IMG/VR virus record: IMGVR_UViG_3300042366_000756
Coordinates: 1-64,000 of that record
DNA from: a virus
Taxonomy: Duplodnaviria; Caudoviricetes
Direction: 5' to 3' (one strand)
DNA: 64,000 bases
Every line of letters starts with the position of its first letter. The stretch's first letter is position 1. This document shows, piece by piece, positions 1,534 to 44,573 of the stretch. The notes below the pieces were generated by a model. The model saw only the letters and a list, made by a program, of their open reading frames with translations. It searched no databases and was not told the origin of the DNA. The position numbers were made by a program, and so were the translations under genes.

Positions 1534-2124
1534 ATGTATGAAAAACGTATACTAGCACCTGGCATAATTCTTTATAGAACTGGTGAAGCATCTGTTGCAG
1601 GACTTAAAGATAAAATAAATTCATCAATTCCTTCAGAAGAATGGAGAGAAGCACGTGTAATAAACCCAGAAACATATGAATCACAGGCAGGTGATCAAAG
1701 AAAATGCCATGATTTTGTTTTGTATAATGATAACGAAACCCTAAAAGATTTATATAAAGAAATAGATGATTGGATATCTCCAGCATTCAAAGATTTTGAA
1801 AAAGAATATTTTGTAGAAAAAACAACTTCAGAGATGTATGTAATATTAAAATATGAAAACTTAGGTAAGTATGATCCACACGTAGATGATGGTGGCAGAT
1901 TCCCTAGAACAATTTCTCTTAGTGCATATATTAATGATGATTACGAAGGCGGAGAACTTGACTTTGTTAATTTTGGTGTTAGACATAAGCCAAAAACTGG
2001 AGATATTATACTTTTTTGTAGTGCTTTTCCATATATGCACATGGTTTCTCCAGTAAAGTCTGGAACCAGATATGCAATAGTAAATTGGTATAGATACTCA
2101 ACATATCCAAAAGAGATAATTTAA
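1534..2124 (+). CDS. Prolyl 4-hydroxylase-like 2OG-Fe(II) oxygenase
   Basis: PHVD...YINDDYEGGEL...HMVSPVKSGTRY motifs. Confidence 0.9.
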   Translation: MYEKRILAPGIILYRTGEASVAGLKDKINSSIPSEEWREARVINPETYESQAGDQRKCHDFVLYNDNETLKDLYKEIDDWISPAFKDFEKEYFVEKTTSEMYVILKYENLGKYDPHVDDGGRFPRTISLSAYINDDYEGGELDFVNFGVRHKPKTGDIILFCSAFPYMHMVSPVKSGTRYAIVNWYRYSTYPKEII

Positions 2125-4434: not shown

Positions 4435-4450
4435 ATGATATAATTATAAG

Positions 4451-5008: not shown

Positions 5009-5024
5009 TTATTATTTTATTTAC

Positions 5025-6928: not shown

Positions 6929-6997
6929 ATAACTATCATACCAGATTTCGGCGGGTATAGAAGGAGTATCGTAATACCCTTAGTGTAATAACAAATC

Positions 6998-22956: not shown

Positions 22957-22968
22957 GGCTTGGTCAAC

Positions 22969-25889: not shown

Positions 25890-26975
25890 ATGACAATTTC
25901 AAAGGCATCTCTACAATCATTAACATCAAAAAAGTTACAATATACCACACCAATTAATGATATTCCAGATGGTGCAATTCCAACTGCAACTGATGTCGGA
26001 ACATCTCGTCCTTTTAATAATGGATCTGCAACAATTACTTTGGCTGCACCCACAACAGGTGGACCAGCAACAAGTTATACTGTAACATCAAGTCCAGGAT
26101 CATTCACTGCTACTGGATCTTCTCCATTAACGGTTACAGGGCTACAATCTAATACATCTTATACTTTTACATCGGTAGGAAATAGTGCATTGGGAAGTTC
26201 TTATTTACCAAGCATAGCCTCAAACTCAATTACAGCAACTACTGTTCCAGATGCACCAGTTATTGGTGTAGCAACTAAGATTAGCAATACTGTAGCAAGT
26301 TTAACTTTTACACCGCCAGAAAGTGGTGGAAGTAATATTACAGGGTACACAATAACCTCTTCTCCATCTATTTCAATAACTACTAGTGCTGGAACAACTA
26401 GCCCATTAACAGCGACTGGATCATTTTTGGGTGGACAGTCTTATACTTTTACTATTGTTGCAACTAATGCTAATGGAAATAGTTTATCTAGTTCTGCAAG
26501 TCCTGGAGTAGTTGTTACAGAAACTTCCGTTCCAGCAAAACCAGCAGCACCAACCGTAACAACTGCAGCAGATGCTGATACCGTTACCTGGGTTGCTCCA
26601 GCAAATGGTGGAAGTACAATTACTGGATACACTTGGGCATCATCTGATGGCAAAACTGCAACAGTTAGTGGAACAACGCTATCAGTTGTAGTTGCTCAAG
26701 AAGGAAATACATCACAAACATATACTGTTTATGCTACAAATGCAATTGGAAACTCTTCAATATCAGATCCATCAAATAGTGTTACTACCCCGCCGTTTTT
26801 CCCATCATTTGGTCCATTCTTCCCACCGTTCTTCCCATTCTTTCCACCGTTCTTCCCGTTCTTCCCACCGTTCTTCCCATTCTTTCCACCGTTCTTCCCG
26901 TTCTTCCCACCGTTCTTCCCGTTCTTCCCATTCTTCCCAAGATTCGTTCCGCCAAGTTTTGGTCCTCTGGGCTAA
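25890..26975 (+). CDS. Fibronectin type III-like repeat protein with C-terminal Pro/Phe repeat tail, paralog 1
   Basis: Three FN3-like units (P.AP...FT.P..GGS.ITGY...YTFT.VA.NA.G), then about 50 aa almost solely P/F ending PRFVPPSF. Confidence 0.8.
   Translation: MTISKASLQSLTSKKLQYTTPINDIPDGAIPTATDVGTSRPFNNGSATITLAAPTTGGPATSYTVTSSPGSFTATGSSPLTVTGLQSNTSYTFTSVGNSALGSSYLPSIASNSITATTVPDAPVIGVATKISNTVASLTFTPPESGGSNITGYTITSSPSISITTSAGTTSPLTATGSFLGGQSYTFTIVATNANGNSLSSSASPGVVVTETSVPAKPAAPTVTTAADADTVTWVAPANGGSTITGYTWASSDGKTATVSGTTLSVVVAQEGNTSQTYTVYATNAIGNSSISDPSNSVTTPPFFPSFGPFFPPFFPFFPPFFPFFPPFFPFFPPFFPFFPPFFPFFPFFPRFVPPSFGPLG
26790..26972 (+). repeat. Coding Pro/Phe repeat (PPFFPFF)n
   Basis: 21-nt units with synonymous codon variation. 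Confidence 0.9.
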
Positions 26976-26985
26976 TAAATGATAT

Positions 26986-27024
26986 AAAAAAACCCCCAAG
27001 GAAAAAATCCAAGGGGGTAATTTT
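26986..27024. terminator. Bidirectional terminator between convergent genes
   Basis: A tract, ACCCCC...GGGGGT stem, T tract. Confidence 0.7.
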
Positions 27025-27032
27025 ATTAACTG

Positions 27033-27578
27033 CTACTTACATGGATACTTGTTATACCATTCCTGATACCGTGATCCATTTAGAGTAGTCCATGAGGACC
27101 AGTCTGTACCGCCTTTAGTCATATGATGTGTTATTTGTGCGTTTTTAACTGGATTAAATAGTTCAGAGTTTGACTCTAAATCAAACTTCTCTCTACGATC
27201 TGGACCTAAGTTCCCTATCATGTTTATTTGAAACATGCCATAAGAACTATCTCCAGTATTAGAATTACCGTTAAAGGCATGTGGTCTAGCATTAGTCTCA
27301 GCCATAGCAATTGCACAAGCAGATCTTAAAGCCTTTCCTTCAAACCCTACAGCCTTTAATAATTCAATTAACTGCCCATCACTTAAATTATGAGCATTTT
27401 TATACTTTTCTAATATTTTTTCTTTAGAAACCAAAAAAGCCACCTTGGGGGTGGCAGAGGAATCTATAGAACTTTTAATTAGTAAGTTGTTTTCATTTGT
27501 TGCATTTGCGGTAGCCGAAAAAACGGTACTGCAAATAACCAACGTTAATACCCCTAGCCAAACATTTGCTTCTCTCAT
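27033..27578 (-). CDS. Secreted lysozyme-like/lytic transglycosylase
   Basis: Signal peptide (..ATANA), AIAMAE catalytic Glu, SYGMFQIN, W.SW; AGGAGG SD before ATG 27578. Confidence 0.8.
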   Translation of the reverse strand: MREANVWLGVLTLVICSTVFSATANATNENNLLIKSSIDSSATPKVAFLVSKEKILEKYKNAHNLSDGQLIELLKAVGFEGKALRSACAIAMAETNARPHAFNGNSNTGDSSYGMFQINMIGNLGPDRREKFDLESNSELFNPVKNAQITHHMTKGGTDWSSWTTLNGSRYQEWYNKYPCK

Positions 27579-27722
27579 TGTAGAATACCTCCTAGAGAAC
27601 AAATGCTACCTACTGGTAGCATGTATTAATTATAACATCAATTTGCCCTTTTGGTCAAGTTAAACAATAAAATATAAAAATATTTAAAATATTACTTTAG
27701 TTAGTGGTATAATAATAAGATT

Positions 27723-28136
27723 ATGGCTACTTTTAGAGATCAAGGTTTAGGCTCTTATTCAATTGGTTCTGCACCTCCTACGGTCAACTGGACGATTGTA
27801 AAGGGCGACACATCAGCATTTCGGGTATATGTAACAGATGATAATAAAGATCCCCTAGTGATTGAAGACTGGACAATTGAAATGGAAATTAAAAGACCAG
27901 CAATTGCGGGTAATTTAAATGATGCTGATCCAGCAGGAGTTTTGATTCTTACTCCTATTGCCACAGCAGAAGATGGCGATGGAGAATTTACAGTTTCTCT
28001 AACATCTGCTCAATCAAAAAGTTTAAACACTGGAGATATTTTTGATATTGAATTAAGGGATGCCAGCAGGGTATGGACAGTTGCTCGTGGTATATTAACA
28101 GTTATTGAAGATGTTACAAACAGCGATGAGTCATAA
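27723..28136 (+). CDS. Virion accessory protein (BppU-N/Ig-like), paralog 3
   Basis: WTIVKGD..F.V...D......W...FDIEL...WTV..G.LTVIEDVT. Confidence 0.65.
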   Translation: MATFRDQGLGSYSIGSAPPTVNWTIVKGDTSAFRVYVTDDNKDPLVIEDWTIEMEIKRPAIAGNLNDADPAGVLILTPIATAEDGDGEFTVSLTSAQSKSLNTGDIFDIELRDASRVWTVARGILTVIEDVTNSDES

Positions 28137-28357
28137 TGGCTTCCGTAGCAATAATAGATTTATCTGAAAAAAGATCAGAAACAATTTCTAGGATAGGTTA
28201 TCCTAAAAGTAATATAAGTGGTTTTGTAAGGCTTACAAAGATACAAGAAGTTTTGCCTTTTAGAGTTATGTTTACAAATATTGGAATACCAGCAGCATAC
28301 TCAGGTGTACCTGGAATTGGACTTCAAATAATTGGAATTAATAACTATATTCTTTAA
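28136..28357 (+). CDS. Hypothetical virion-region protein
   Basis: ORF track; coupled. Confidence 0.6.
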   Translation: MASVAIIDLSEKRSETISRIGYPKSNISGFVRLTKIQEVLPFRVMFTNIGIPAAYSGVPGIGLQIIGINNYIL

Positions 28358-28377
28358 CATAATGATATAATAACCTT

Positions 28378-28824
28378 ATGGCAAAGATATCAACCACCAA
28401 CGTAAAGGCCCTGTTTCAGACAGGCGATAGACCAACAGAAGAAAACTATATAGATTTAATTGATAGTACTTCTGCTAGGTCTACCGATCTTGGATCAGAC
28501 GGCAATAATGAGTTAACAATTAATGGAATTGAAAACTCAACAGTATTTGATAGTTTTGCATCAAGCGAGTTTAGATCAATGAAATATATGATCTCACTCA
28601 AGCATGTAGCAGGCGGTGCAAATAAGTACGCTGTTACAGAATTAACAATATTGAATGATGGATCAGATGTATCTGTTAGTCAATATGGCACTATTGAAAA
28701 TGATGGGAATATTGGCACCATCTCTGTTTCAAAGGCTGGGGACACAGTTTCACTAACTGTGGTTCCTGTGGGGGGAAATACACCTATAACTCTGCGCTAC
28801 ATGCGTATGGGATTAAAGGCCTAA
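28378..28824 (+). CDS. Tail-fibre-associated protein
   Basis: LFQTGDRPTEENY.DLIDS; C-terminus resembles the C-terminus of 28840..30963. Confidence 0.65.
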   Translation: MAKISTTNVKALFQTGDRPTEENYIDLIDSTSARSTDLGSDGNNELTINGIENSTVFDSFASSEFRSMKYMISLKHVAGGANKYAVTELTILNDGSDVSVSQYGTIENDGNIGTISVSKAGDTVSLTVVPVGGNTPITLRYMRMGLKA

Positions 28825-28839
28825 CTAAGGAGATAAAAG

Positions 28840-30963: not shown

Positions 30964-30981
30964 CTAGAATAGAGGTTAGAA

Positions 30982-31431
30982 GTGGCAACAATAAACAAAG
31001 ACTTTAGAGTAAAGCATGGCATTAACGTTGCCGAAGGCGGTACTTTTGGAGGAACTGTTACAGTTGCCACTCCTACTGAAAACACACATGCAACAACAAA
31101 GTCCTATGTAGATTCAATAGCAGGAATGGTTGTTGGTGCTACAGCACCTACTTCTCCAACTAATGGAAGACTATGGTTTGATACATTAACAGAACGTGTG
31201 CATGTTTATTATGATTCTGAGTGGCTTGCAATTGCAACACTTGAAGATGCAGAAATATTACAAGACCATATTCACGATACCGCTATTGATGGCACTGGTT
31301 TAATCGTCAGTACTTTTGTTAGTGGTGGGGCATATAATGAACCAGGAGTTCTTGTAAGTGCAGGATTGTACAACACGTCAGAGTTTGAAGAAACTTTTGA
31401 TGGTGGGACAGCAATAGATAATTTTAACTAA
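30982..31431 (+). CDS. Tail-fibre-associated protein
   Basis: GTG start; MAT.NKDFRVK N-terminus shared with 28840; GATAPTSP.NG.LWFD. Confidence 0.65.
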   Translation: MATINKDFRVKHGINVAEGGTFGGTVTVATPTENTHATTKSYVDSIAGMVVGATAPTSPTNGRLWFDTLTERVHVYYDSEWLAIATLEDAEILQDHIHDTAIDGTGLIVSTFVSGGAYNEPGVLVSAGLYNTSEFEETFDGGTAIDNFN

Positions 31432-31469
31432 TTATCTGTTATAATATAACTAAGTATAAGGAGTCGTAA

Positions 31470-33905
31470 ATGGCAACTAGAATGCAACAGCGCAGAGGAA
31501 CTGCTTCACAGTGGACTTCTGCAAATCCAGTATTAAATGCGGGTGAAATGGGATGGGAATCAGATACAAATAAATTTAAGATGGGTGATGGAACAAATCA
31601 CTGGGCAGATCTTGATTATTTTATTGATGCCAACTCAACAGTAAACCCTTCTTTTGGTACTAGCATTGTTTTTGAGGGTGCAACAGCAGACTCCTATGAA
31701 ACTACACTACAAGTAACAGACCCAACCGCAGACCGAACAATTACTCTTCCAAACGTTACAGGTACAGTTATTACAACTGGCAACCTTTCAGACATTACTA
31801 ACATTGGAGTATTTACTTCAACAATTACAATGGAAGGCGCTACTGCAAATGATCACGAACTTACAATTTCTGCAGGTGATCCAACCGCAGATCGTACAGC
31901 AACTTTTCCAGATGCCACAGGCACTATTGTTCTTCATGATGCAAGTCAAACATTAACTAATAAAACTATTTCTTTTTCAAATAACGCAGTTTCAGGAACG
32001 CTTGCTGAGTTTAATACTGCTGTAGCAGATGCAGATCTTGTTTCTATTTCTGGTGCAGAAACACTTACAAACAAAACTCTTACAAGTCCAGTAGTTTCAC
32101 AACTTATACTTTCAGATTCTTCAATTGTTTTTGAAGGTTCTACTGCTAATGACTATGAAACTACACTTACAGTAGTAGATCCAACTGAAGACAGGACAAT
32201 TACTCTCCCAAATGAAACAGGAACTGTAATTACAACTGGTAACTTTGCAGCAATTACATCCTTAACTAACCCATCAATTTCAAATCCAACGATTTCAGGT
32301 CTTATTATTTCCGACTCTTCAATAGTTCTTGAAGGCGCAACGGCAAATGATTTTGAAACAACTTTGAATATAACAGATCCAACTGCCGACAGGACAATTA
32401 CTTTTCCTGACATAAGTGGTAATGTTATTACAAGTGGAAACTTATCAGATATTACTAGCCTTGGAGTTTTAAGTTCAATTGTTTTTGAAGGTTCTACTGC
32501 TGATGATTTTGAACTTACTCTTGCAGGTGGCGAACCAACTGCTGACCGCACAGTTTCCTTCCCTGATGCAGGAGGAGTAGTTGTTGTTGACACTGCTACA
32601 CAAACCCTTACAAATAAAACTTTAACAAGTCCACAAGTAAGTGGTTTAACTATTACAGATGGAAGCATTGTTCTTGAAGGTTCTACACCAAATGATTTTG
32701 AAACCACATTAACTGTTACAGATCCAACTGCTGACAGAACGATTTCATTCCCTGACGTAACTGGTACAGTTGTAACAACTGGTGATACTGGTAGCGTAAC
32801 TAGCACAATGATTTTAGACGGAACTATTGTTGATGGAGATATTAATGCATCAGCAGCGATTGCACAATCTAAAATTTCTGGCCTAACAACTGATCTTGGA
32901 AATAAACAAGATAAGATTTCTGGTGTATCAGATACAGAAATTGGATACTTAAGTGCTGTAACTTCAGACATTCAGGCACAACTAGATGCTAAGTTAGCCC
33001 TTGCTGGTGGAACCATGACTGGCGCTATTGCAATGGGCACAAGCAAAATTACTGGCCTTGGAACACCAACTGATGCAGCAGATGCAGCAACAAAGGCTTA
33101 TGTAGATGCTCTTGGAGAAGGACTTCATATCCATGCTTCAGTAGTGGCTGCAACAACTGCAAACATTACTCTTGCTACAGATGTTGAAAACGGAGACACT
33201 CTTGACGGAGTAACTCTTGCAACTGGTAACAGAATTCTTGTTAAGAATCAATCAACTGCATCTCAAAACGGTATTTACGTAGTAGCAGCATCAGGAGCAC
33301 CATCTAGAGCAGCAGACTTTGACTCCCCTGCTGAAATTGATGGAGGAGACTTTGTATTCGTAACTGGAGGAACAGTAAATGATAACAAAGGCTATGTACA
33401 GATAAACACTGTTGGAACAATAGGCACAGATGCAATTGAATTTAGCCAATTCTCAGGTGCAGGAACTTTTACTGCTGGTAACGGATTAACATTAACTGGC
33501 CCAGAGTTTACTATTAATACTAGCATTACAGCAGATCTTTCAACAGCCCAAACCCTCACAAATAAAACATTAACATCACCTAAAATTAATTTAGGAATTA
33601 ATGCTCAAACTGGCACAAATTATACATTTGTTTTAGCCGATGATGGTAAGTTTGTAACCGCATCTAATTCTTCAGCAATTACAGTTACTATCCCGCCAAT
33701 AAGTTCAGTTGCATATCCAATTGGAGCGCAACTTAATATTATTCAAAAGGGTGCAGGACAAGTTACATTTGCTCAAGGTGCTGGAGTAACAATTAACTCT
33801 ACTGGAGCAACTGCCACTGCGCCAAAACTTCGTGTAAGGTACTCATCAGCAACAGCCGTACATGAAGGCTCGGATATTTGGTACGTAGTAGGAGATATTG
33901 CGTAA
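31470..33905 (+). CDS. Tail fibre protein (Mtd-N-like N-terminus, repeated EGATAD..ETTL..TDPTADRTI.P modules)
   Basis: QRRGTA.QW..ANPVL..GE.G.E.DT.K.K.GDG..W; about 6 internal repeats. Confidence 0.8.
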   Translation: MATRMQQRRGTASQWTSANPVLNAGEMGWESDTNKFKMGDGTNHWADLDYFIDANSTVNPSFGTSIVFEGATADSYETTLQVTDPTADRTITLPNVTGTVITTGNLSDITNIGVFTSTITMEGATANDHELTISAGDPTADRTATFPDATGTIVLHDASQTLTNKTISFSNNAVSGTLAEFNTAVADADLVSISGAETLTNKTLTSPVVSQLILSDSSIVFEGSTANDYETTLTVVDPTEDRTITLPNETGTVITTGNFAAITSLTNPSISNPTISGLIISDSSIVLEGATANDFETTLNITDPTADRTITFPDISGNVITSGNLSDITSLGVLSSIVFEGSTADDFELTLAGGEPTADRTVSFPDAGGVVVVDTATQTLTNKTLTSPQVSGLTITDGSIVLEGSTPNDFETTLTVTDPTADRTISFPDVTGTVVTTGDTGSVTSTMILDGTIVDGDINASAAIAQSKISGLTTDLGNKQDKISGVSDTEIGYLSAVTSDIQAQLDAKLALAGGTMTGAIAMGTSKITGLGTPTDAADAATKAYVDALGEGLHIHASVVAATTANITLATDVENGDTLDGVTLATGNRILVKNQSTASQNGIYVVAASGAPSRAADFDSPAEIDGGDFVFVTGGTVNDNKGYVQINTVGTIGTDAIEFSQFSGAGTFTAGNGLTLTGPEFTINTSITADLSTAQTLTNKTLTSPKINLGINAQTGTNYTFVLADDGKFVTASNSSAITVTIPPISSVAYPIGAQLNIIQKGAGQVTFAQGAGVTINSTGATATAPKLRVRYSSATAVHEGSDIWYVVGDIA

Positions 33906-34717
33906 TGGAAATCCTGGGGACAATTGCTTCTTCTGCTAAAGGGGCTCCAAGTAAGCCAACAAGCGTTTCTGCAACTGATGCAGGATCAGGTCGTGCATTT
34001 AATAATGGATCTGCTACTGTAACCTTTACTGCAGGAGCAGGAGCAACAGCAACATCATTTACTGCTACATCTTCCCCAGGATCATATACAGCAACTGGTT
34101 CTTCATCTCCACTAACTGTTACAGGTTTACAATCTAACACCGCATATACATTTACCGTTACAGCAACAAATGCATCTGGAACTTCCGATGCTTCAGATGC
34201 TTCTGCTTCTATTACGGCAACAACAGTACCAGCAACTATGAGTGCACCAACCGTAACAACTTCAGCACTTTCAGATGCTGTTTCTTGGACAGCCCCCGCA
34301 GATGGAGGTTCTGCAATTACTGGCTATACCTGGGCATCTTCTGACGGAAAAGGCGCTACAGTAGGATCAGGAACAACAAGTGTTGCCGTTACTCAAGAAG
34401 CAAATACTTCACAAACTTATACAGTTTATGCAACTAACGCAAATGGTAACTCAGTAACTTCAAGTGCATCAGGCAGTGTGACTACACCACCGTTCTTCCC
34501 TCCATTTTTTCCATTTTTCCCATTCTTCCCTCCATTCTTTCCACCGTTCTTCCCGTTCTTTCCTCCGTTCTTTCCTCCATTTTTTCCATTCTTCCCATTC
34601 TTCCCGTTCTTCCCACCGTTCTTCCCACCGTTCTTCCCACCGTTCTTCCCATTCTTCCCGTTCTTCCCAAGATTCGTTCCACCTTCTTTTAGATTTACTC
34701 CTGATAATTTATTTTAA
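33905..34717 (+). CDS. Fibronectin type III-like repeat protein with C-terminal Pro/Phe repeat tail, paralog 2
   Basis: ATG 33905 overlaps the upstream TAA; two FN3-like units; about 60 aa of only P/F, then PRFVPPSF. Confidence 0.8.
   Translation: MEILGTIASSAKGAPSKPTSVSATDAGSGRAFNNGSATVTFTAGAGATATSFTATSSPGSYTATGSSSPLTVTGLQSNTAYTFTVTATNASGTSDASDASASITATTVPATMSAPTVTTSALSDAVSWTAPADGGSAITGYTWASSDGKGATVGSGTTSVAVTQEANTSQTYTVYATNANGNSVTSSASGSVTTPPFFPPFFPFFPFFPPFFPPFFPFFPPFFPPFFPFFPFFPFFPPFFPPFFPPFFPFFPFFPRFVPPSFRFTPDNLF
34487..34700 (+). repeat. Coding Pro/Phe repeat (PPFF/PFF)n
   Basis: Mixed CCG/CCT/CCA/CCC and TTC/TTT codons. Confidence 0.9.
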
Positions 34718-34805
34718 ACAAAAAATAAACCAAGATAGGTCTATGATATAATTAATTAGGGTTTAAGGGAATATTAGATATTTTAATATAATAAGGGGGA
34801 AATAA

Positions 34806-35534
34806 ATGGATTATAACAATCAGGCACATCATGACGAAAATGCAAACGTTTGGTTTACAAAGGATAGATCAGAGACATCAAGCAACAGGGTTGGCACAAA
34901 ATCATTAAAAAATGGCATAGTTGTTGAAAACCTGGCTTTAGGGGTTAATGTTTACAAAAATACATTTTCATTAGAAGATTCTAAAAGATATATAAATACA
35001 CTTGAGTCAAATTTAAATAACAATGCAAAGCATAGTTGGTCACAAGCACAAGTAACAAACTCTACCACTCCAATTAAAAAAGCAAGAGACTGTGTAGATT
35101 TTAAATACAAGCAAGAAAATCTTGGACCAAGAGATCAAGATAACGCAGAACTACTAGATCTTCATCAAGAAATATATGAAAAACTAAAATACTGTGTAGA
35201 TGATTATGCTTCATATTGGGGAATAAATATTGTATATTATGAGGCATTCAATTTTGTTAAATATGAAGGAGAAGGATCTCACTTTAATATTCATGCAGAT
35301 CACGGTCCTTTCTATAACTGCACTGTTTCTGCTGTAGTATATATAAACGATGACTATGAGGGTGGAGACTTAAAATTCCCAAGAATGGATAATCTTGTCT
35401 ATAAGCCTAAAGTTGGCGATATAGTTCTTTGTCCGTCAAACTATATCTATGAGCATGCATCACTACCAATACAATCAGGAACAAAATACTGTGTTGTTGT
35501 TATGACAGACATTAATGAGTTAGGACACAAGTAA
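34806..35534 (+). CDS. Prolyl 4-hydroxylase-like 2OG-Fe(II) oxygenase
   Basis: IHAD...YINDDYEGGDL...YEHASLPIQSGTKY. Confidence 0.9.
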   Translation: MDYNNQAHHDENANVWFTKDRSETSSNRVGTKSLKNGIVVENLALGVNVYKNTFSLEDSKRYINTLESNLNNNAKHSWSQAQVTNSTTPIKKARDCVDFKYKQENLGPRDQDNAELLDLHQEIYEKLKYCVDDYASYWGINIVYYEAFNFVKYEGEGSHFNIHADHGPFYNCTVSAVVYINDDYEGGDLKFPRMDNLVYKPKVGDIVLCPSNYIYEHASLPIQSGTKYCVVVMTDINELGHK

Positions 35535-35535
35535 C

Positions 35536-36324
35536 GTGTCCAAAGAATCTAATTCTTTTAAAAATGTAATTAAATTTAAACCATACAGGCCATGGCTAAA
35601 TGATCAAAGTTTTTCTGCACCGTCTCCAACACAAAAAACAATTCCCGAATGGTATAAAAGTGCAGATAGATTTGCCAAAATGTCAAATGGAGAATATTAT
35701 CAAGCACCAAAAGAGGTCTGTCCTTTTCCAAAAGAAGGAACTGTAGATGACTATGGAAAGATTCCAACATGGAAGGCATGCCCAGCAATTTTAGATGCTT
35801 TTTCTACAGGCTATGTTTTAAAAACTCCATGCGACCTTACATTTTTTAAAAATGAAAAAGGAATAATTGATGTTAGAGTGTCTGATCCAAAATACAAAGA
35901 TTTTTGTGGACAAAGACCTGCAATGCCACAATTTGAACATCCTAAAGGATTTTACAAAGATCATTTTGCTTGGTATTCAGATTGGGGATTAGAACTTCCA
36001 GAAGGATATAGTGCATTGTTTATGACGCCAATGAATAGATTTGATTTACCATTTTTAAATACAACTGGAATAGTTGATTCTGATAAAGTTCATATTCTTG
36101 GAACTTTTCCGTTTTTTATTGCAGAGGGTTGGGAAGGAACTTTACCAGCAGGAACTCCTTACTTACAAGTACTTCCTTTTAAAAGAGAAAATTGGGAACA
36201 AAAAATAGAAAATTTAGATCAAAATCAGATGTATGATAAACTAATGGATAATGCAAAAATTTATCGCCAACCAGATGGCGGTGTTTATAAAAATAAAGTA
36301 TGGTCTAAAAGAGAATACATATAA
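35536..36324 (+). CDS. DUF6065-like protein
   Basis: IPEWYK...TWKACPAILDAFSTGY.L.TPCD...TGIVDSD...GTPYLQVLPFKRE. Confidence 0.55.
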   Translation: MSKESNSFKNVIKFKPYRPWLNDQSFSAPSPTQKTIPEWYKSADRFAKMSNGEYYQAPKEVCPFPKEGTVDDYGKIPTWKACPAILDAFSTGYVLKTPCDLTFFKNEKGIIDVRVSDPKYKDFCGQRPAMPQFEHPKGFYKDHFAWYSDWGLELPEGYSALFMTPMNRFDLPFLNTTGIVDSDKVHILGTFPFFIAEGWEGTLPAGTPYLQVLPFKRENWEQKIENLDQNQMYDKLMDNAKIYRQPDGGVYKNKVWSKREYI

Positions 36325-36335
36325 GGAGCAATAAA

Positions 36336-37019
36336 ATGCAAACATGGACAGAAAAAGTTGACCTTGGAAATGGCATCATATGTTATAAAGGGGTTATTAA
36401 AAAAGAATTTGATGTAATAAATAGACTTGAAAGTATTTTGGGCTCTGTTGCGGGGTATGGAGAGTTATCTCCAGAAGGAAATCCATACCACTGGGTACCA
36501 GCATATGTAGGGTATCAACAGTTGATGCCAGACTACAGAGATTGTGTAGATTTTAAATTTAAAAAAACAGATATAGAACATGATACAAGTGAAGATTCAT
36601 TAAAATTACAGGCACTTTGGCAAGATGTTTATGATGCTCAAGCAGTAGCCGTTGAAGATTATTGTAGACAGTTTAGGATTCATAACTTAAAGTATTGGGA
36701 AGCATTTAATTTTATTAAGTATGGGCCAGGACAACATTTCCAAGAGCACCACGATCATGGATTTTCATATAATTGCACTGTCTCATTAGTGGCTTATATA
36801 AATGATGATTATGAGGGTGGAGAGTTAGCATTTAGATTACAAGGTTTGAACGTTAAGCCAGACGCTGGAGATTTATTTGTATTCCCTTCAAACTTTATGT
36901 ATCCTCATAGAGCAATGCCAGTTCATTCGGGAACAAAGTATTCTATTGTTACTATGCTAGATTATAGTAAAAAGTTTCATACTCCAGAAATGTACGATCC
37001 AAAATGGAATAATGAATAA
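36336..37019 (+). CDS. Prolyl 4-hydroxylase-like 2OG-Fe(II) oxygenase
   Basis: EHHD...YINDDYEGGEL...PHRAMPV.SGTKY; close paralog of 34806. Confidence 0.9.
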   Translation: MQTWTEKVDLGNGIICYKGVIKKEFDVINRLESILGSVAGYGELSPEGNPYHWVPAYVGYQQLMPDYRDCVDFKFKKTDIEHDTSEDSLKLQALWQDVYDAQAVAVEDYCRQFRIHNLKYWEAFNFIKYGPGQHFQEHHDHGFSYNCTVSLVAYINDDYEGGELAFRLQGLNVKPDAGDLFVFPSNFMYPHRAMPVHSGTKYSIVTMLDYSKKFHTPEMYDPKWNNE

Positions 37020-37741
37020 TGTTTAATATTTTAGTTGAACAAACTCCTTATTCCAATATGAAGGTTTCTCCAATGTCTATAAAAAGAGATTGGATGGACG
37101 CAACTTCAGAAAAACATGCATATCGTTGTTTTCCAGTAACTCAAGCAAATGTAATTGGATGGAGCATATCTTGTTTAAATGACATATCTTTTATTTGGAA
37201 TGGAATCAATGATCAAACTGGAGACAATGTTAAAATTTTGCAAGGAGAAGAAACTTGTTACACTGGAAGAGGACAGTCAAGTTTAAGTTTTAATACAGGA
37301 TTACATTTTAAAACAACCGAAAATATTAGTTTATTTACAATTAATCCAGTTAATTATTTTAGTGATGATTTTGAAACAATGTCTTCTTTAATAAGTATAT
37401 CTTTTTTTGATAATCCACTTCCTTTAGCAATTAAAGCACGATCTGCAAACAAAGAAATTTTAATAAAAGCGGGAACTCCACTAGCAACAATTATTCCAAT
37501 ATCTTTGGGTGCCTTAAATAATTCAAGTATTGAAATTAATGAATATCAAGATCTAGACAATAAAAAACAAGAAGCAAATAAATCTTATGGGGATGCAGCA
37601 CAAAAAATAAATCAATCTGGAAAATTTACAGATTGGTATAGAAATGCTGTAAATGAAAAAGGAGAATCCATAGGAAATCATGAGGTTAAAACATTAAAAT
37701 TGAAAGTAATTAATAATATAAGGGAACAAATAGATGACTAA
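37019..37741 (+). CDS. DUF6065-like protein
   Basis: RDWMDAT..KHAYRCFPV..AN..GW. Confidence 0.65.
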   Translation: MFNILVEQTPYSNMKVSPMSIKRDWMDATSEKHAYRCFPVTQANVIGWSISCLNDISFIWNGINDQTGDNVKILQGEETCYTGRGQSSLSFNTGLHFKTTENISLFTINPVNYFSDDFETMSSLISISFFDNPLPLAIKARSANKEILIKAGTPLATIIPISLGALNNSSIEINEYQDLDNKKQEANKSYGDAAQKINQSGKFTDWYRNAVNEKGESIGNHEVKTLKLKVINNIREQIDD

Positions 37742-37794
37742 TCCTTTTACAGCCGTTAACCCTTTATTTATAGAATTTCTGGTATAATCTTATT

Positions 37795-38382
37795 ATGCTT
37801 AATCAAATAGAAGATGCTAAAAAAAATAATCAAGCGTTAGTATTTGAAAAATATCAGATGCCAGAAATTACTTGGGAAGATGTTTTGTTATTTTTGTATA
37901 AAGAGTCTTTAGTACCTAATCATGATTTAATTAAAAAAGTAAAAGAAATAAACAATTATGAGGATTTTAATTCAATAGGAAATATTCAGATACAAAGCAA
38001 ATTTTGGCTTTCTCCACAGTCACATAATATATTTAAAGATTTTAATGGGGTATCTGAGTTACTATATAAATTAAATAAATCAAAAGATAACAGTCATTGT
38101 AGATATTATTCAGGAAGGGACCAGTGCTCCTGTGATTCCTGTTGGCATTTTCAAGGGATAAGAATATCTTTATCAAATAGAGTTGTGTCAGACCATCATG
38201 ATCCACACGATATTTTTTATTGGCAAATACTTGGAACTTCTTTTTGGAAAGTAAATAATGACATTACCTATATCTTAAATCCAGGAGATATGTTATATTT
38301 ACCAAAAGAAAGTTCGCATGAAGTTTGGTGTGATGGACCTAGAGCAGGACTACTTATAGATAACCTAAAGGAGATAAAATAA
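37795..38382 (+). CDS. JmjC/Cupin_4-type 2OG oxygenase
   Basis: HHDPHD.F.WQ..G...WKV...L.PGD.LYLP....HEV. Confidence 0.8.
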   Translation: MLNQIEDAKKNNQALVFEKYQMPEITWEDVLLFLYKESLVPNHDLIKKVKEINNYEDFNSIGNIQIQSKFWLSPQSHNIFKDFNGVSELLYKLNKSKDNSHCRYYSGRDQCSCDSCWHFQGIRISLSNRVVSDHHDPHDIFYWQILGTSFWKVNNDITYILNPGDMLYLPKESSHEVWCDGPRAGLLIDNLKEIK

Positions 38383-38386
38383 TACC

Positions 38387-39073
38387 ATGACAGAAGAATA
38401 TGCAAATTCTAATATTGACAGTAATCTAAAATCTATAACTCCGCCAGGATTTTTTGGAGAATCAGCAAACAATATTCAATCAAGAGAAAATTTTATAACT
38501 GAAGAAGAAAGATTATTTTTGTTAAATGCTGCAAAATCAATTACGGAATGGGATAGAACTGAAACACACTATAATGATGACGGAGTGGTGATATATGATG
38601 CATCTTATTGGGACAATAGAGTTGCTTCAAGGCCAATCTTAGAAAAAATAGATCCAGAAATTTCTATTGTAATAGAAAGACTTGTGGCAAGATTAAAAAT
38701 AGAAGTAGATAATTTTTTTAATGTAGATGCAAAACCTACGAGTCCAGCAATAGTTAGGTGGATGCCAGGATATAGGCAAGAACCCCATGCAGACAAACAA
38801 TTACAAAATGGAGAGCCAAATGATTTCCCATGGTATGATTTAGCAGGATTATTTTACTTAAACGATGATTATGACGGTGGAGAACTATATTTTTTAAATC
38901 ATAATGTTGAGTTTAAGCCAAAACCAGGTGCTGCATATTTTTTTCCAGGAGATATTAATTATAGCCATGGCGTAAGAGAAATAACAAAAGGAATTAGATA
39001 TGTTATTCCATTTTTTTGGACAATCTTAGAGCATAAAGGTAAAAAAACTATGACAGATAAGGAAATAGAATGA
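38387..39073 (+). CDS. Prolyl hydroxylase-like 2OG-Fe(II) oxygenase
   Basis: PHAD...YLNDDYDGGEL...HGVREITKGIRY. Confidence 0.9.
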   Translation: MTEEYANSNIDSNLKSITPPGFFGESANNIQSRENFITEEERLFLLNAAKSITEWDRTETHYNDDGVVIYDASYWDNRVASRPILEKIDPEISIVIERLVARLKIEVDNFFNVDAKPTSPAIVRWMPGYRQEPHADKQLQNGEPNDFPWYDLAGLFYLNDDYDGGELYFLNHNVEFKPKPGAAYFFPGDINYSHGVREITKGIRYVIPFFWTILEHKGKKTMTDKEIE

Positions 39074-39828
39074 ACCTAGAAAATAAAAAAAGACTTACAA
39101 AAGACATAGTTATATATGAAAACTTTATTGATAAAGAAACTTGTCAAAAAATGATACAGGCGCTTGACGCACAAGCAGATTCTGGTAAACTATCTTGGAT
39201 GCCTATATCGTTCTATGAATCATATTCATCTGTTCTTCCGCAAGATAATGACCAAGAAGTTTTGGATGCTGGATTAGAGCCAAATATTTTTTCAGATATT
39301 GAAAAGAAAATGCCAGAAGCAATTGCATCTGTTCATGATTTAGATCCAAAGAAAATTTCTAAAATTGGATACCATACACAAAAATGGGAGCCTGGAGCAT
39401 ATGCAAGAATCCACTCTGATAACACAGATGAAAAGGGTAATTCTGGAGCATTTACAAGAAGTAGGTATGCTGGCTTTTTATACTTGAACGATAATTTTAA
39501 AGGTGGACTTTTAAGATTTCCAGATCAAAGCATAGAGATACAGCCAAAGGTTGGAATGCTTGCTGTATTTGACGGGGGATTTAACAATATGCATGAGGTA
39601 TCCCTTATTACAAGTGGAGTAAGATACACAATTGGTTCTTTCTGGGATGACAGAGAAGAATCAGATTATCCACAAGAACTTAGAGACGCCTGGGCAGCAG
39701 AAATGAAAGAAACTAGAGCAAAACAGGAAATTGAAAGAGCCGAATGGCAAGATCTTATTAAAAAGGGATATAAAATTGACATAGATGGTAATAAATATAA
39801 AGTAGAGGAGTTAAATAAAGATGCCTAG
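39070..39828 (+). CDS. Prolyl hydroxylase-like 2OG-Fe(II) oxygenase
   Basis: IHSD...YLNDNFKGG.L...HEVSLITSGVRY. Confidence 0.9.
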   Translation: MNLENKKRLTKDIVIYENFIDKETCQKMIQALDAQADSGKLSWMPISFYESYSSVLPQDNDQEVLDAGLEPNIFSDIEKKMPEAIASVHDLDPKKISKIGYHTQKWEPGAYARIHSDNTDEKGNSGAFTRSRYAGFLYLNDNFKGGLLRFPDQSIEIQPKVGMLAVFDGGFNNMHEVSLITSGVRYTIGSFWDDREESDYPQELRDAWAAEMKETRAKQEIERAEWQDLIKKGYKIDIDGNKYKVEELNKDA

Positions 39829-40480
39829 TTTTTTAAAAAAAGAATTTATAGACAATAACTTTAGCGTTGTTGATATAACAGATGATATTTTATTAGTAGA
39901 AAACTTTATTTCTCAAGAAGAGTTAAAAGAAATTTTAAATATTATTAACACAACAGATGAGGAAGAGTGGCTTGTTGCATATAAAGAAAGTTTGGCTGAA
40001 TTTTGTTTATTAAAGTTTGGCTCATCAGATGTTGAAAAAATGGTTGCTGAAGGAAAATATGAAGTAACTAAGGGCTGGGATGATAAAATTCTTAATATAA
40101 ATCAATATCCTATAACTAAACTATTGCAACAAAGAATACAACAACTTGTAGACAAGGCAGATAGCACATTGCAGTTAGGTGGAATGAGTACTCTTCAAAG
40201 AATGCAAGAAGGGGTTGAATTAAAATCTCACGTAGATCAAGACACAGACCCATCTGTTAGATATGCCACAATATTATATATAAATGATGACTATACCAAT
40301 GGAGAACTTTTTTTTGATAACTTTGATATTAAATTAAAACCAAAGCCAGGGTCTTTGCTTGTTTTTCCAGGAGATCCAAAACATAAACATGGAGTAAAGC
40401 ATGTTGGCCCAGGACCAATAAGACAGGTTATTGTTGGTTTTGTGACAGTAAAAGATTTTTATGAAAACAACAAGTACTAA
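39821..40480 (+). CDS. Prolyl hydroxylase-like 2OG-Fe(II) oxygenase
   Basis: SHVD...YINDDYTNGEL...HGVKHV.PG.IR. Confidence 0.9.
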   Translation: MPSFLKKEFIDNNFSVVDITDDILLVENFISQEELKEILNIINTTDEEEWLVAYKESLAEFCLLKFGSSDVEKMVAEGKYEVTKGWDDKILNINQYPITKLLQQRIQQLVDKADSTLQLGGMSTLQRMQEGVELKSHVDQDTDPSVRYATILYINDDYTNGELFFDNFDIKLKPKPGSLLVFPGDPKHKHGVKHVGPGPIRQVIVGFVTVKDFYENNKY

Positions 40481-40491
40481 GGAGATATAAA

Positions 40492-41121
40492 GTGAACAAA
40501 GAAATACTTGAAGAAAAAGTCTATTATTACACAGATGTAATTGAAGACCCAAAAAAACTTGTTGAGGCAATTGAAAGCGACAATAAAGATCCTTGGGGCG
40601 AATGGATGGCATGCAGCGGACAGGCTTATGTTTATGGCACAGACAAGACTATTGCCTTATCAGCAGATGCAGATGAAAAAAATAAATATATCTACAACAC
40701 TTTACAAAAAGCGTTTGATGATGTTGCAAGAGATTATGCAAAGGCACAAGGAATTACAGAAGAGCCAAAACTATTTCCACAATACCCAATAAAAAAATAC
40801 CAATCAGGAACATACATGGGGGCACACTTTGATCAACAAGAAGGAGATGGCCGTCTTAAAGTTTCTTTTGTTATGTATTTAAACGATGACTACGAAGGTG
40901 GAGAACTATCTTTTACTATAGCGTCACCAGATGGAGTATTACAAAACGCTAGTCCAGAGCCAGATTTTGCAGAAGCAGAAAAAAACGGAAACTACACTTT
41001 TGCTATTAAACCAAAAGCAGGAAGCATTATTGTGTTTCCTCCTTCTCCACCATATCATCACACTGCACACTTAGTTAAAAGCGGTGAAAAGATTATGGTT
41101 CCTCAACACTGGATTCATTAA
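40492..41121 (+). CDS. Prolyl hydroxylase-like 2OG-Fe(II) oxygenase
   Basis: GTG start; AHFD...YLNDDYEGGEL...HTAHLVKSGEK. Confidence 0.9.
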   Translation: MNKEILEEKVYYYTDVIEDPKKLVEAIESDNKDPWGEWMACSGQAYVYGTDKTIALSADADEKNKYIYNTLQKAFDDVARDYAKAQGITEEPKLFPQYPIKKYQSGTYMGAHFDQQEGDGRLKVSFVMYLNDDYEGGELSFTIASPDGVLQNASPEPDFAEAEKNGNYTFAIKPKAGSIIVFPPSPPYHHTAHLVKSGEKIMVPQHWIH

Positions 41122-41788
41122 CATTAAAACAGCAATAGTAACAGGAGCCAGCAAAGGAGTTGGCTATGCAACAGTAAAAATTTTATCTGAGAATGGATAT
41201 AAGGTAATTGCTGTTTCAAGAGATTTATCCAAAGTGTCTAATTTAGTTTCTGACAATGTTGAAGTTTATTCTTTAGATATAACAAACTCTAATGAAATTA
41301 AAAATTTTTATGAAAAATATAAAGACATAACTCTTGACCTACTTGTTAATAATGCAGGTGGAGGATCTGGACCTACACATATTATTAATGAAACAATGGA
41401 TAATTTTAGACGGGCTTATGATATAAATGTATCTGGGCCAATGTATCTCTCACAACTCTTTGTTCCATCTATGAAAAAATCCCAATCCCCAACTATTGTG
41501 TTTATTACATCTTTTGGAGGAAAAATCCCTTACCGTGGCGGAGGTAATTATACTAATGCTAAGCGTGGGGAAAGAGGTCTTATAGATACTATGAGACTAG
41601 AATTTCCAGAGTATGGAATTAAGATAACTGAAATTTGTCCTGCTACAATTGATACTCAAAAACAAAAAAGAGAACATGCTCTATCTGCAGAAGATTTGGC
41701 TAATGCGATTTATTGGGTTGGATCTTTGCCCAAACATTTGAATATAAATCAAATAGAGATGTGCCATATCAATAGTAGTAAGTTCTAA
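41084..41788 (+). CDS. Short-chain dehydrogenase/reductase (YdfG-like); start uncertain
   Basis: TGASKGVG, NNAGG, YTNAK (YxxxK). Confidence 0.85.
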   Translation: MKRLWFLNTGFINIKTAIVTGASKGVGYATVKILSENGYKVIAVSRDLSKVSNLVSDNVEVYSLDITNSNEIKNFYEKYKDITLDLLVNNAGGGSGPTHIINETMDNFRRAYDINVSGPMYLSQLFVPSMKKSQSPTIVFITSFGGKIPYRGGGNYTNAKRGERGLIDTMRLEFPEYGIKITEICPATIDTQKQKREHALSAEDLANAIYWVGSLPKHLNINQIEMCHINSSKF

Positions 41789-41950
41789 TTCAGCATATAA
41801 CTTTTGTTTTATATAAGTGCCTAACTCTAAAGTAAACATTTACTTTATTGTTTGAGTGTAAATCTTTGTTTTAATGTTGTGATATACTAAGACTACTTTA
41901 CAATTAGTAAAGCACTAATAATATTTTTTAATAGAAAGTTGGAAAAATTA

Positions 41951-43981: not shown

Positions 43982-43990
43982 GGAGATAAA

Positions 43991-44443: not shown

Positions 44444-44573
44444 AACTATTAGATAAACATGTAGATCAAAAATCTTATTATAAAGTAATTGTTCAGTTTG
44501 CACTGACCTTGCTTTGTTTACACATAGCCAATATTAAAACAATAGACATTTGGCGTTCTTTAACAGGGCACTA

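What the first reader, a model, noticed from the sequence alone, without database searches (positions are those of the whole stretch)
25890..41788. FN3 proteins with pure Pro/Phe tails next to a seven-oxygenase cluster: a candidate virion-tailoring (RiPP-like or HRGP-like) system
Seen: two paralogous FN3-like proteins (25890, 33905) end in about 50-60 residues almost exclusively of P and F (PPFF/PFF units), both capped by PRFVPPSF. Synonymous codons vary within the repeats, which points to selection on the protein. The second gene is followed 88 bp later by six P4H-like oxygenases, a JmjC-type oxygenase, two DUF6065-like proteins and an SDR. Known: P4H-family enzymes hydroxylate proline in polyproline-II-type peptides, the chlorovirus PBCV-1 P4H acts on Pro-rich repeats, and JmjC/Cupin_4 enzymes are protein hydroxylases. 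Inference: the tail is a repeated substrate cassette with a conserved recognition cap. Distinct oxygenases could hydroxylate Pro or Phe, and the glycosyltransferases at 1-7.7 kb could decorate the products, giving a modified virion surface or a released peptide.
Basis: partly seen in the sequence, partly recalled or inferred. Interest (0 to 1): 0.88.

Follow-up and report, generated by a model that had tools for sequence, protein, structure and literature searches.

The report
Phage Pro-Phe fibre tails with hydroxylases
An uncultured lake phage ends two fibre-region proteins in long tracts made only of proline and phenylalanine and encodes a battery of collagen-type hydroxylases beside one of them; tract and enzymes travel together across many phages, so the tract is a testable candidate substrate, though no chemistry has been shown.

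Summary
Two paralogous FN3 proteins (25890-26975 and 33905-34717) end in 42 and 61 residues of pure Pro/Phe built on a PPFFPFF heptad. The second is followed 88 nt later by six P4H-type 2OG oxygenases, a JmjC-type cupin, two homologous dUTPase-fold proteins (one is DUF6065) and an SDR.

- In related phage contigs, Pro-rich tails go with 4-10 oxygenases (34 of 35 loci). Sister phages with equally aromatic but Pro-poor FG/YSF tails have 0-3 (30 of 30).
- The battery therefore tracks proline, not phenylalanine.
- On the NrdJ tree, tail type and battery swap together at least twice.
- They are adjacent, so linkage is not excluded.
- The RiPP reading is disfavoured. In relatives, self-cleaving modules (S74 chaperone, Hint) sit after the tract, so the tract stays on the protein.
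- The 'recognition cap' aligns with a degenerate S74 cleavage motif.

The enzyme array itself is of a known kind, the cyanophage Syn9 array of Iyer et al. 2010, whose substrate is unknown.

This scan found the same module before on other DNA (e1-5899417, e1-5863764, e1-5788760 and others). No hydroxylation has been demonstrated.

The parts
25890..26975 (+). FN3a: fibre-region protein with three FN3 repeats and a Pro/Phe tail; last gene of the block that starts with the collagen-like fibre gene
   Evidence: Translation, Pfam fn3, paralog of FN3b, same position in relatives
26790..26939 (+). Pro/Phe tract of FN3a: PPFFPSFG, then 42 residues of pure P/F in a PPFFPFF heptad
26940..26972 (+). Cap RFVPPSFGPLG
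   Evidence: aligns with the S74-type motif of relatives
31470..33905 (+). Tail fibre with Mtd_N N-terminal domain. Its stop overlaps the start of FN3b. It precedes the tail-bearing gene in nearly all related loci.
   Evidence: Pfam, PHROGs, gene maps
33905..34717 (+). FN3b: 270-aa protein with two FN3 repeats and a Pro/Phe tail
34487..34669 (+). Pro/Phe tract of FN3b: 61 residues of pure P/F
34670..34714 (+). Cap RFVPPSFRFTPDNLF, a degenerate counterpart of RFVYSSKRFKYDIL
34806..35534 (+). OX1, P4H-type 2OG-Fe(II) oxygenase
   Evidence: PF13640; HxD..H and K; PDB profile hits to B. anthracis P4H and LH3
35536..36324 (+). X2: dUTPase-fold protein with a conserved Cys; homolog of Syn9 gp43 and of the DUF6065 gene
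36336..37019 (+). OX3, P4H-type 2OG-Fe(II) oxygenase
37019..37741 (+). DUF6065 protein with dUTPase fold. In the sampled relatives it occurs only in phages with Pro-rich tails.
37795..38382 (+). JmjC_2/cupin oxygenase; rare among relatives
38387..39073 (+). OX6, P4H-type oxygenase
39070..39828 (+). OX7, P4H-type oxygenase
39821..40480 (+). OX8, P4H-type oxygenase
40492..41121 (+). OX9, P4H-type oxygenase
41084..41788 (+). Short-chain dehydrogenase/reductase at the end of the battery
1534..2124 (+). OX0, a seventh PF13640 oxygenase, in a sugar-enzyme island; link to the module untested

Best explanation
The window comes from a roughly 110-kb-class lake siphophage. Two FN3 proteins encoded beside its tail-fibre genes carry a C-terminal tract of pure Pro/Phe (PPFFPFF heptads). 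I propose that at least some of the P4H-type 2OG/Fe(II) oxygenases encoded directly downstream hydroxylate prolines of this tract in the infected cell. This would resemble what collagen and plant/algal prolyl hydroxylases do to Pro-rich repeats. The result would be a soluble, stiff, possibly trimeric polyproline-II-like stalk or linker on the virion. The other enzymes (JmjC, SDR, and in relatives a sulfotransferase and an Asp/Asn beta-hydroxylase) may tailor it further.

Shown: the tracts; the enzyme families and their intact iron and 2OG-binding residues; the co-occurrence and cassette-like co-inheritance; codon-level selection on the tract.

Inferred: that the tract is the substrate, which residue is modified, and what the modification does.
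For: 1. Enzymes. Seven PF13640 paralogs share 18-45% identity and all keep HxD...H plus a Lys/Arg. Their joint profile finds prolyl 3-hydroxylase 1, B. anthracis P4H, PBCV-1 P4H (5c5t), PHD2 and lysyl hydroxylases as the best solved relatives.
2. Co-occurrence within the phage group. Among 65 informative loci, Pro-rich tails (at least 11 P in the best 30 residues) have 4-10 oxygenases in 34 of 35. Pro-poor FG/YSF tails have 0-3 in 30 of 30, although aromatic content is similar (12 versus 13-17 of 30).
3. Scan by DNA pattern. 66 of 73 loci with a PF-heptad gene and at least 3 kb downstream have an oxygenase within 5 kb.
4. Reverse direction. 43 of 43 DUF6065 loci with at least 5 kb upstream have a PF tract upstream.
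5. Phylogeny. On the NrdJ tree the PF+battery state needs at least 2 changes, and the single split is rejected (AU p = 7e-9). L051/L052 (PF, 7-8 oxygenases) sit inside a clade with L061 (YSF tail, none).
6. Adjacency broken but pair kept. In L017 the battery lies about 8 kb upstream. G053 and G051 carry internal PF linkers and 13 and 6 oxygenases elsewhere on the contig.
7. Other lineages. Complete genomes of 154, 160, 206 and 268 kb with PPYF-type tracts lack a clear homolog of this phage's portal, yet carry 6-15 PF13640 genes, with a tract-OX6-OX3-DUF6065 core.
8. The collagen-like fibre, the conventional substrate, does not track the battery. It is present in G041, whose locus shows no battery (one PF13640 match in the record).
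9. The tract is under protein-level and frame-keeping selection. TTC is 91% of Phe codons in 176 distinct PF runs versus 18% elsewhere, and CCG is 28% versus 4%.
10. Precedent. PBCV-1 P4H hydroxylates Pro-rich peptides in vitro (PMC7019647). Iyer et al. predicted hydroxylation of co-encoded collagen-like or tail-collar proteins in bacterial operons (PMC2938197).
Against: - No chemical evidence exists.
- Tract and battery are adjacent, so joint inheritance is expected from linkage alone.
- On the FN3 tree a single origin of the split is not rejected (AU p = 0.49).
- Independent events are few, about 2-3 within the group.
- The base rate of PF13640 genes in large lake phages without such tracts was not measured.
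- The homologous Syn9 array has no Pro-rich tract nearby.
- Hydroxyproline was not detected in PBCV-1 virions despite its P4H (PMC7019647).
- Why a two-letter substrate would need six or seven divergent enzymes is unexplained.
- L055/L056 (AFG tails, no Pro) still have three oxygenases.
- No structure of the tract could be modelled.
Confidence: 0.5

Rival explanations
1. The oxygenases hydroxylate other proteins, such as the large fibres, the collagen-like fibre or host proteins. On this reading the Pro/Phe tract is only a stiff linker or anchor that is inherited with the battery because it lies next to it.
For: PF tracts also occur as internal linkers beside or in place of Pro-Thr linkers. 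Tract and battery are adjacent, and cassette swapping would move both. The FN3-tree AU test allows a single origin. The Syn9 array has no such tract.
Against: The collagen-like fibre is present in G041, whose locus shows no battery. The pair is kept when adjacency is broken (L017, G051, G053). The battery tracks Pro content of the tail among close relatives that share the same fibres. The same pairing is seen in lineages with unrelated portals.
Confidence: 0.25
2. The array builds or tailors a small molecule, a secondary metabolite or a sugar/nucleotide derivative. Iyer et al. proposed this for the homologous cyanophage Syn9 array.
For: The array composition matches Syn9: several classical 2OG dioxygenases, a JmjC-type enzyme and the gp43-like dUTPase-fold protein (PMC2938197). 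An SDR closes the array, and nucleotide-metabolism genes (NrdJ) follow.
Against: The cluster has no halogenase, NRPS, ATP-grasp or other scaffold-forming enzyme. The best solved relatives of the paralogs are protein prolyl/lysyl hydroxylases. The small-molecule reading does not explain the strict pairing with Pro-rich tails.
Confidence: 0.2
3. The tail is a RiPP-like core that is modified and then released as a free peptide.
Against: There is no leader, protease or exporter. In relatives the autocleaving S74 and Hint modules lie after the tract and would leave it attached to the FN3 domains. The tract also occurs inside large multidomain proteins.
Confidence: 0.03

Closest known systems
Tandem dioxygenase array of Synechococcus phage Syn9 (gp41-gp54), described by Iyer, Abhiman, de Souza and Aravind 2010 (PMC2938197)
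   Same: It is a tandem array of divergent classical 2OG-Fe(II) dioxygenases with a JmjC-type member and a dUTPase-fold protein with a conserved Cys. X2 is homologous to gp43 (hhalign 96.9%, E 2e-10). The array lies directly after tail-fibre genes. Its substrate is unknown.
   Different: The window's cluster has no tryptophan halogenases. An SDR and a second dUTPase-fold paralog (DUF6065) are present. The array is preceded by a protein with a pure Pro/Phe tract, whereas Syn9 gp32-gp40 have none. Iyer et al. proposed secondary-metabolite synthesis, not modification of a virion protein.
Chlorovirus PBCV-1 prolyl 4-hydroxylase (PDB 5c5t) and the virus's Pro-rich repeat peptides (Eriksson et al. 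1999, cited in PMC7019647)
   Same: It is a virus-encoded P4H-family enzyme. The profile of the window's paralogs matches it (E 1.1e-8). It hydroxylates Pro-rich repeat peptides in vitro.
   Different: PBCV-1 has a single enzyme in a eukaryotic virus. Its repeats are of the PAPK type, not Pro/Phe. It shows no gene adjacency of enzyme and substrate. Its in vivo role is unknown, and no Hyp was found in virions (PMC7019647).
Bacterial collagen-type P4H (Bacillus anthracis, PDB 3itq/5hv0) and the bacterial operons of Iyer et al. predicted to hydroxylate co-encoded collagen-like or tail-collar proteins
   Same: These are the best solved sequence relatives of OX1 and OX3. The logic is the same: hydroxylases are encoded next to a repetitive structural protein. 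Relatives of this locus add a sulfotransferase and an Asp/Asn beta-hydroxylase (L012).
   Different: The tract has no Gly-X-Y periodicity and cannot be a collagen triple helix. The phage's true collagen-like fibre does not track the battery.
Peptidase_S74 intramolecular chaperone and Hint (intein-like) autoprocessing modules at the C-termini of phage fibres
   Same: In relatives the tract is followed by the S-x-x-R-x-K motif plus a Peptidase_S74 ORF, or by a Hint domain. This points to a fibre-like, probably trimeric protein whose mature C-terminus is the tract.
   Different: The window's two proteins have neither module, only a degenerate motif. In relatives the S74 domain is split into a separate 93-aa ORF.

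Membership tests
P4H-type 2OG-Fe(II) oxygenases (Pfam PF13640) | Match to the family model above its curated cut-off | tested here: met
   Six genes in the cluster and one at 1534-2124 score 35.8-55.7 bits against a cut-off of 27.
P4H-type 2OG-Fe(II) oxygenases (Pfam PF13640) | HxD...H iron triad and a basic residue for the 2OG C5 carboxylate | tested here: met
   H163, D165 and H217 (OX1 numbering) are invariant in all seven paralogs. K or R lies at the expected position after the SG motif.
P4H-type 2OG-Fe(II) oxygenases (Pfam PF13640) | Hydroxylation of peptidyl proline | not testable with these tools
   This needs an enzyme assay or mass spectrometry.
Syn9-type phage dioxygenase array (Iyer et al. 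2010) | Tandem array of several divergent classical 2OG dioxygenases next to fibre genes | tested here: met
Syn9-type phage dioxygenase array (Iyer et al. 2010) | dUTPase-fold protein with a conserved cysteine | tested here: met
   X2 model versus dUTPases; the DUF6065 model gives Z 9.0 over 108-116 residues; X2 versus Syn9 gp43 gives hhalign 96.9% with the Cys aligned.
Syn9-type phage dioxygenase array (Iyer et al. 2010) | JmjC (MINA/NO66-type) member | tested here: inconclusive
   JmjC_2 scores 33.1 bits against a cut-off of 22, but over 23 residues only. Similarity to gp49 is local (E 3e-5). There is no PDB sequence match.
Syn9-type phage dioxygenase array (Iyer et al. 2010) | Tryptophan halogenases | tested here: not met
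   No halogenase family appears among the ten cluster proteins.
Collagen-like triple helix | Gly at every third residue (G-X-Y) | tested here: not met
   The pure P/F tracts contain no Gly. A true collagen-like gene lies at 22960-23688.
RiPP precursor with tailoring cluster | Leader/core organisation with a dedicated protease or exporter | tested here: not met
   No such families occur in the cluster. The tract follows folded FN3 domains. In relatives the cleavage modules lie after the tract.
Peptidase_S74 intramolecular chaperone | Ser/Lys cleavage motif followed by the chaperone domain | tested here: not met
   This is met in relatives (YSSKRFKHSI plus a 93-94-aa ORF with PF13884 at 27.1 bits). 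In the window the motif is degenerate (PPSFRFT) and no S74 ORF follows.

The most novel reading that the evidence does not exclude
The Pro/Phe tract is a previously unknown kind of hydroxylated structural polymer on phage virions, a bacterial-virus counterpart of collagen or plant extensins. A dedicated multi-enzyme battery would convert an otherwise insoluble two-letter tract into a hydroxyproline-rich, possibly further decorated, trimeric stalk. This would also reveal the long-sought substrate class of phage dioxygenase arrays.
Probability: 0.35. Interest if true: 0.85.

Novelty: new variant of a known kind. Interest (0 to 1): 0.7.

Why it matters
Tandem arrays of 2OG dioxygenases have been known in aquatic phages since 2010 without a known substrate, and they are usually filed as auxiliary metabolic genes. 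A genetically paired candidate substrate makes the question directly testable: a short, synthesisable Pro/Phe repeat encoded beside the enzymes. If confirmed, it would show that phages post-translationally hydroxylate their own virion proteins. It would also add a new class of Pro-aromatic structural repeat and supply a set of divergent peptide hydroxylases with a defined substrate.

Tried and rejected
- Megablast of 25-45 kb and tblastn of FN3b against isolated phages found nothing.
- tblastn of the DUF6065 gene against isolated phages gave only weak haloarchaeal virus hits.
- PDB sequence searches with the X2 and DUF6065 profiles and with the JmjC protein gave nothing usable. Fold search was needed instead.
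- The idea that the collagen-like fibre at 22960 is the real substrate was rejected as the driver. It is present in G041, whose locus shows no battery.
- The idea that Syn9 hides a similar tract next to its array was rejected. gp32-gp40 have no Pro-aromatic repeat.
- The 258-aa ORF between tail gene and battery in some relatives looked like a DXD glycosyltransferase by eye. It has no Pfam hit and no similarity to the window's GT, so I make no claim about it.
- The FN3-domain tree could not establish more than one origin of the PF/non-PF split (AU p = 0.49).
- Promoter and terminator scans gave no more sites than shuffles and show no boundary between FN3b and the battery.
- Literature searches found no description of Pro/Phe tracts paired with phage hydroxylases.
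- Both structure-prediction jobs went to X2 and DUF6065, so the tract and the oxygenases were not modelled.
Full report
**What the window is.** The window is the first 64 kb of a 90,367-bp IMG/VR virus record judged 82% complete. It encodes a portal, prohead protease, major head protein and a tape-measure protein of more than 1,900 aa, so it is a long-tailed phage. No isolated phage resembles it at the DNA level. Related contigs come from lake metagenomes. The only five matches to the tract's DNA pattern in 185,579 prokaryote genomes are short contigs in MAGs, at least two from one lake (sample codes ME2012, ME2014), binned to five unrelated taxa. These are probably phage contigs.

**Check of the observation.**
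- The gene at 25890-26975 gives a 361-aa protein with three FN3 repeats. It ends in PPFFPSFG, then 42 residues of only Pro and Phe, then RFVPPSFGPLG.
- The second gene starts at the ATG at 33905, which overlaps the stop of the preceding fibre gene. Relatives begin MEILG/MDILG. It has two FN3 repeats, 61 residues of only Pro and Phe, then RFVPPSFRFTPDNLF.
- The two proteins are paralogs, with 59% identity over 174 aa and E 7e-43.
- Tandem Repeats Finder reports 21-nt arrays, which correspond to a PPFFPFF heptad.
- All nucleotide variation inside the runs is synonymous in this frame.
- Codon choice is strongly atypical. In 176 distinct P/F runs from related loci, TTC makes up 91% of Phe codons against 18% elsewhere, and CCG 28% of Pro codons against 4%. 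My reading is that this choice avoids long T or C runs and so keeps the frame. That is an inference.
- The second gene is followed after 88 nt by nine tightly packed genes and an SDR. Six of them pass the PF13640 cut-off, one matches JmjC_2, one is DUF6065 and one has no Pfam match.

**The enzymes.**
- The seven PF13640 proteins of the window share only 18-45% identity. All keep the HxD...H iron triad and a Lys or Arg at the 2OG-binding position.
- A profile of the seven finds, as best solved relatives, prolyl 3-hydroxylase 1 (E 5.6e-11), Bacillus anthracis P4H (2e-10) and PBCV-1 P4H 5c5t (1.1e-8). PKHD-type hydroxylases, a procollagen lysyl hydroxylase/glycosyltransferase (6ax6), PHD2 and LH3 follow.
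- This places them among protein prolyl/lysyl hydroxylases at superfamily level. It does not show their substrate.
- The ORF at 35536 (X2) and the DUF6065 gene are homologous to each other (hhalign 92.5%; both match phrog_7084).
- Their models have a dUTPase-like fold. For X2 (pLDDT 75.5), Foldseek gives E about 3e-4. For DUF6065 (pLDDT 63.4), VIA-align gives Z 9.0 over 108-116 residues. They are therefore not oxygenases.

**Relation to what is known.** Iyer et al. (PMC2938197) described an array in cyanophage Syn9. [quoted passage not shown] They proposed that it makes halogenated metabolites. X2 is homologous to Syn9 gp43, with hhalign 96.9%, E 2e-10 and the cysteine aligned. The Syn9 array also follows the fibre genes. 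The window's array is therefore a relative of a known kind of phage gene array whose substrate has never been established. It differs in lacking halogenases and in being preceded by a Pro/Phe tract. Syn9 gp32-gp40 have no such tract.

**Co-occurrence within the phage group.** An alignment of FN3b relatives recovered 530 related stretches in IMG/VR, and 80 loci were kept. In all of them a fibre gene with an Mtd_N domain is followed by a small FN3 protein with an aromatic low-complexity tail. The tails fall into two classes.
- Pro-rich tails (PPFF/PFF, some PPYF or PFFPxFC) have 11-15 Pro in the richest 30 residues. They go with 4-10 oxygenase genes in the locus in 34 of 35 informative loci.
- Pro-poor tails (FSPFG, FTPFG, AFG, YSFTP) have 0-7 Pro and go with 0-3 oxygenases in 30 of 30.
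- Aromatic content is about the same in both classes. The battery therefore tracks proline, not phenylalanine.
- A scan of IMG/VR for the heptad at the DNA level gave 115 further loci. Of 73 with at least 3 kb downstream of a tract gene, 66 have an oxygenase within 5 kb on the same strand.
- Some of the exceptions resemble FN3a in the window, with the battery lying further away. Others are large proteins with internal tracts. The two such contigs that are at least half complete carry 6 and 13 PF13640 genes elsewhere.
- In the reverse direction, all 43 DUF6065 loci with at least 5 kb upstream have a tract upstream, at a median distance of 2.9 kb. These loci are close relatives of one another.

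**How many independent events.** This is the weak point.
- On a tree of the FN3 domains the class changes three times, always together with the battery. A single split is not rejected (AU p = 0.49).
- On a tree of NrdJ, the conserved gene just downstream, at least two changes are needed and a single split is rejected (AU p = 7e-9). L051/L052 (PF tail, 7-8 oxygenases) nest with 98% support among phages with Pro-poor tails and no battery, such as L061.
- L051-53 and L061 are also neighbours on the FN3 tree. The segment from the start of the tail to the end of the battery therefore behaves as one exchangeable cassette.
- This fits functional coupling, but it is also what physical linkage would give.
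- Three observations go beyond linkage. First, in L017 the battery has moved about 8 kb upstream and is retained. Second, the second tail-bearing protein, several conserved genes away, has the same tail type as the first in each phage. Examples are the window, L024, L025, L038 and L061, although gene conversion could do this. Third, PPYF-type tracts beside an OX6-OX3-DUF6065 core occur in complete genomes of 154, 160, 206 and 268 kb. These have no clear homolog of this phage's portal and carry 6-15 PF13640 genes.
- I did not measure how common such genes are in large lake phages without tracts.

**What the tract is likely to be.**
- In relatives the tract is followed by one of four endings: nothing; a Cys-rich knot; a Hint (intein-like) domain beginning with Cys and ending in HN (Pfam Intein_splicing, below its cut-off); or the motif YSSKRFKHSI..INIKLK.
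- After that motif and a 19-27-nt gap comes a 93-95-aa ORF that matches Peptidase_S74, the intramolecular chaperone of endosialidase-type fibres.
- From established knowledge of S74 domains, the S-x-x-R-x-K motif is their Ser/Lys autocleavage site, and they help the upstream fibre to trimerise.
- Both kinds of module would leave the tract as the mature C-terminus of the FN3 protein. This argues against a released RiPP-like peptide and for a fibre-like, probably trimeric protein.
- The window's 'cap' RFVPPSFRFTPDNLF aligns with RFVYSSKRFKYDIL. I read it as a degenerate remnant of that site rather than a recognition element.
- The tract also serves as an interdomain linker in large proteins, beside or in place of Pro-Thr linkers.
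- A tract of Pro and Phe alone would be very hydrophobic. Hydroxylation would make it more soluble and, as in collagen, could stiffen a polyproline-II conformation. This last step is inference.

**Alternative substrates.** The phage has a true collagen-like fibre gene (22960-23688; Pfam Collagen). A 42%-identical full-length homolog is present in G041, whose record has a single PF13640 match and no battery in its locus. No homolog was found in G004, which has nine PF13640 matches but is only 83% complete. The collagen-like gene therefore does not explain the distribution of the battery.

At 1-7.7 kb there is one PF04488 glycosyltransferase, a UDP-glucose-type dehydrogenase, a carbamoyltransferase and another PF13640 oxygenase. 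A role in decorating the hydroxylated tract is possible but untested. In one relative (L012) a sulfotransferase and an Asp/Asn beta-hydroxylase sit between tail gene and battery. This recalls the hydroxylation-then-sulfation operons that Iyer et al. predicted for collagen-like and tail-collar proteins.

**Cautions from the literature.** PBCV-1's P4H hydroxylates Pro-rich peptides in vitro. Its role in vivo is unknown, and no hydroxyproline was detected in purified virions (PMC7019647). I found no paper that describes Pro/Phe tracts or their pairing with phage hydroxylases.

**Earlier notes of this scan.** The same module was reported on other genomes, with the same reading. I used those notes as leads, notably to the Iyer paper, and re-tested the claims on this window's relatives.

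**Verdict.** The enzyme array is a variant of a known kind. The pairing with Pro-rich aromatic tracts is strong, specific for proline and seen in several phage lineages. Whether the tract is the substrate remains a well-founded but untested hypothesis; I put it at about 0.5.

Noticed in passing
L037:10010-11368, L055:8761-10002, L065:2505-3752 and other loci: Sister phages replace the Pro/Phe tract with nucleoporin-like FG repeats (FSPFG, FTPFG, AFG) or YSFTP repeats, usually followed by a Hint domain. Two different virion proteins of one phage always carry the same repeat type. This suggests homotypic association or gene conversion.
   Followed up: partly
L002:10001-11129; also L003, L015, L019, L020, L011, L016, L036: The Peptidase_S74 chaperone is split. 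The Ser/Lys cleavage motif ends the FN3-tract gene. The rest of the domain is a separate 93-95-aa ORF 19-27 nt downstream. Whether this reflects read-through, recoding or a true trans-acting chaperone is open.
   Followed up: partly
window 26814-26939 and 34487-34669; 176 runs in related loci: Codon bias inside Pro/Phe runs is extreme: TTC 91% versus 18% elsewhere, CCG 28% versus 4%, and CCT/CCC avoided. This is consistent with avoidance of homopolymer runs that would cause slippage.
   Followed up: yes
L139:1013-5698 (minus strand), L083:891-3770, L192:3-3284, L136:3566-6481: Pro/Phe tracts occur as internal linkers between domains of very large proteins (571-1561 aa). In L177 and L013 they run directly into Pro-Thr linkers.
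   Followed up: partly
window 35536-36324: The X2/gp43-like dUTPase-fold family is also present in haloarchaeal tailed viruses (HF1, HF2, HRTV, HCTV; 25-28% identity over more than 80% of the protein). It is kept in Pro-poor sister phages without the battery, so its role may be separate from the oxygenases.
   Followed up: partly
window 41939-45068: A class II (B12-dependent) ribonucleotide reductase follows the battery directly.
   Followed up: no
window 1534-7672: A sugar-enzyme island holds a PF13640 oxygenase, a UDP-glucose/GDP-mannose dehydrogenase, a NodU/CmcH-type carbamoyltransferase and a DXD glycosyltransferase.
   Followed up: no
L275-L279 (GTDB genome contigs): The only five prokaryote-genome matches to the tract's DNA pattern are short contigs in MAGs binned to Luteolibacter, Bacteroidetes, Beijerinckiaceae, Acidimicrobiaceae and Chitinophagaceae. 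They are probably phage contigs mis-binned into MAGs.
   Followed up: no
window 26985-27020: A hairpin (CCCCCAAGG...CCAAGGGGG) lies between the convergent FN3a and lysozyme-like genes. It is a likely bidirectional terminator, and the consensus scan did not list it.
   Followed up: no
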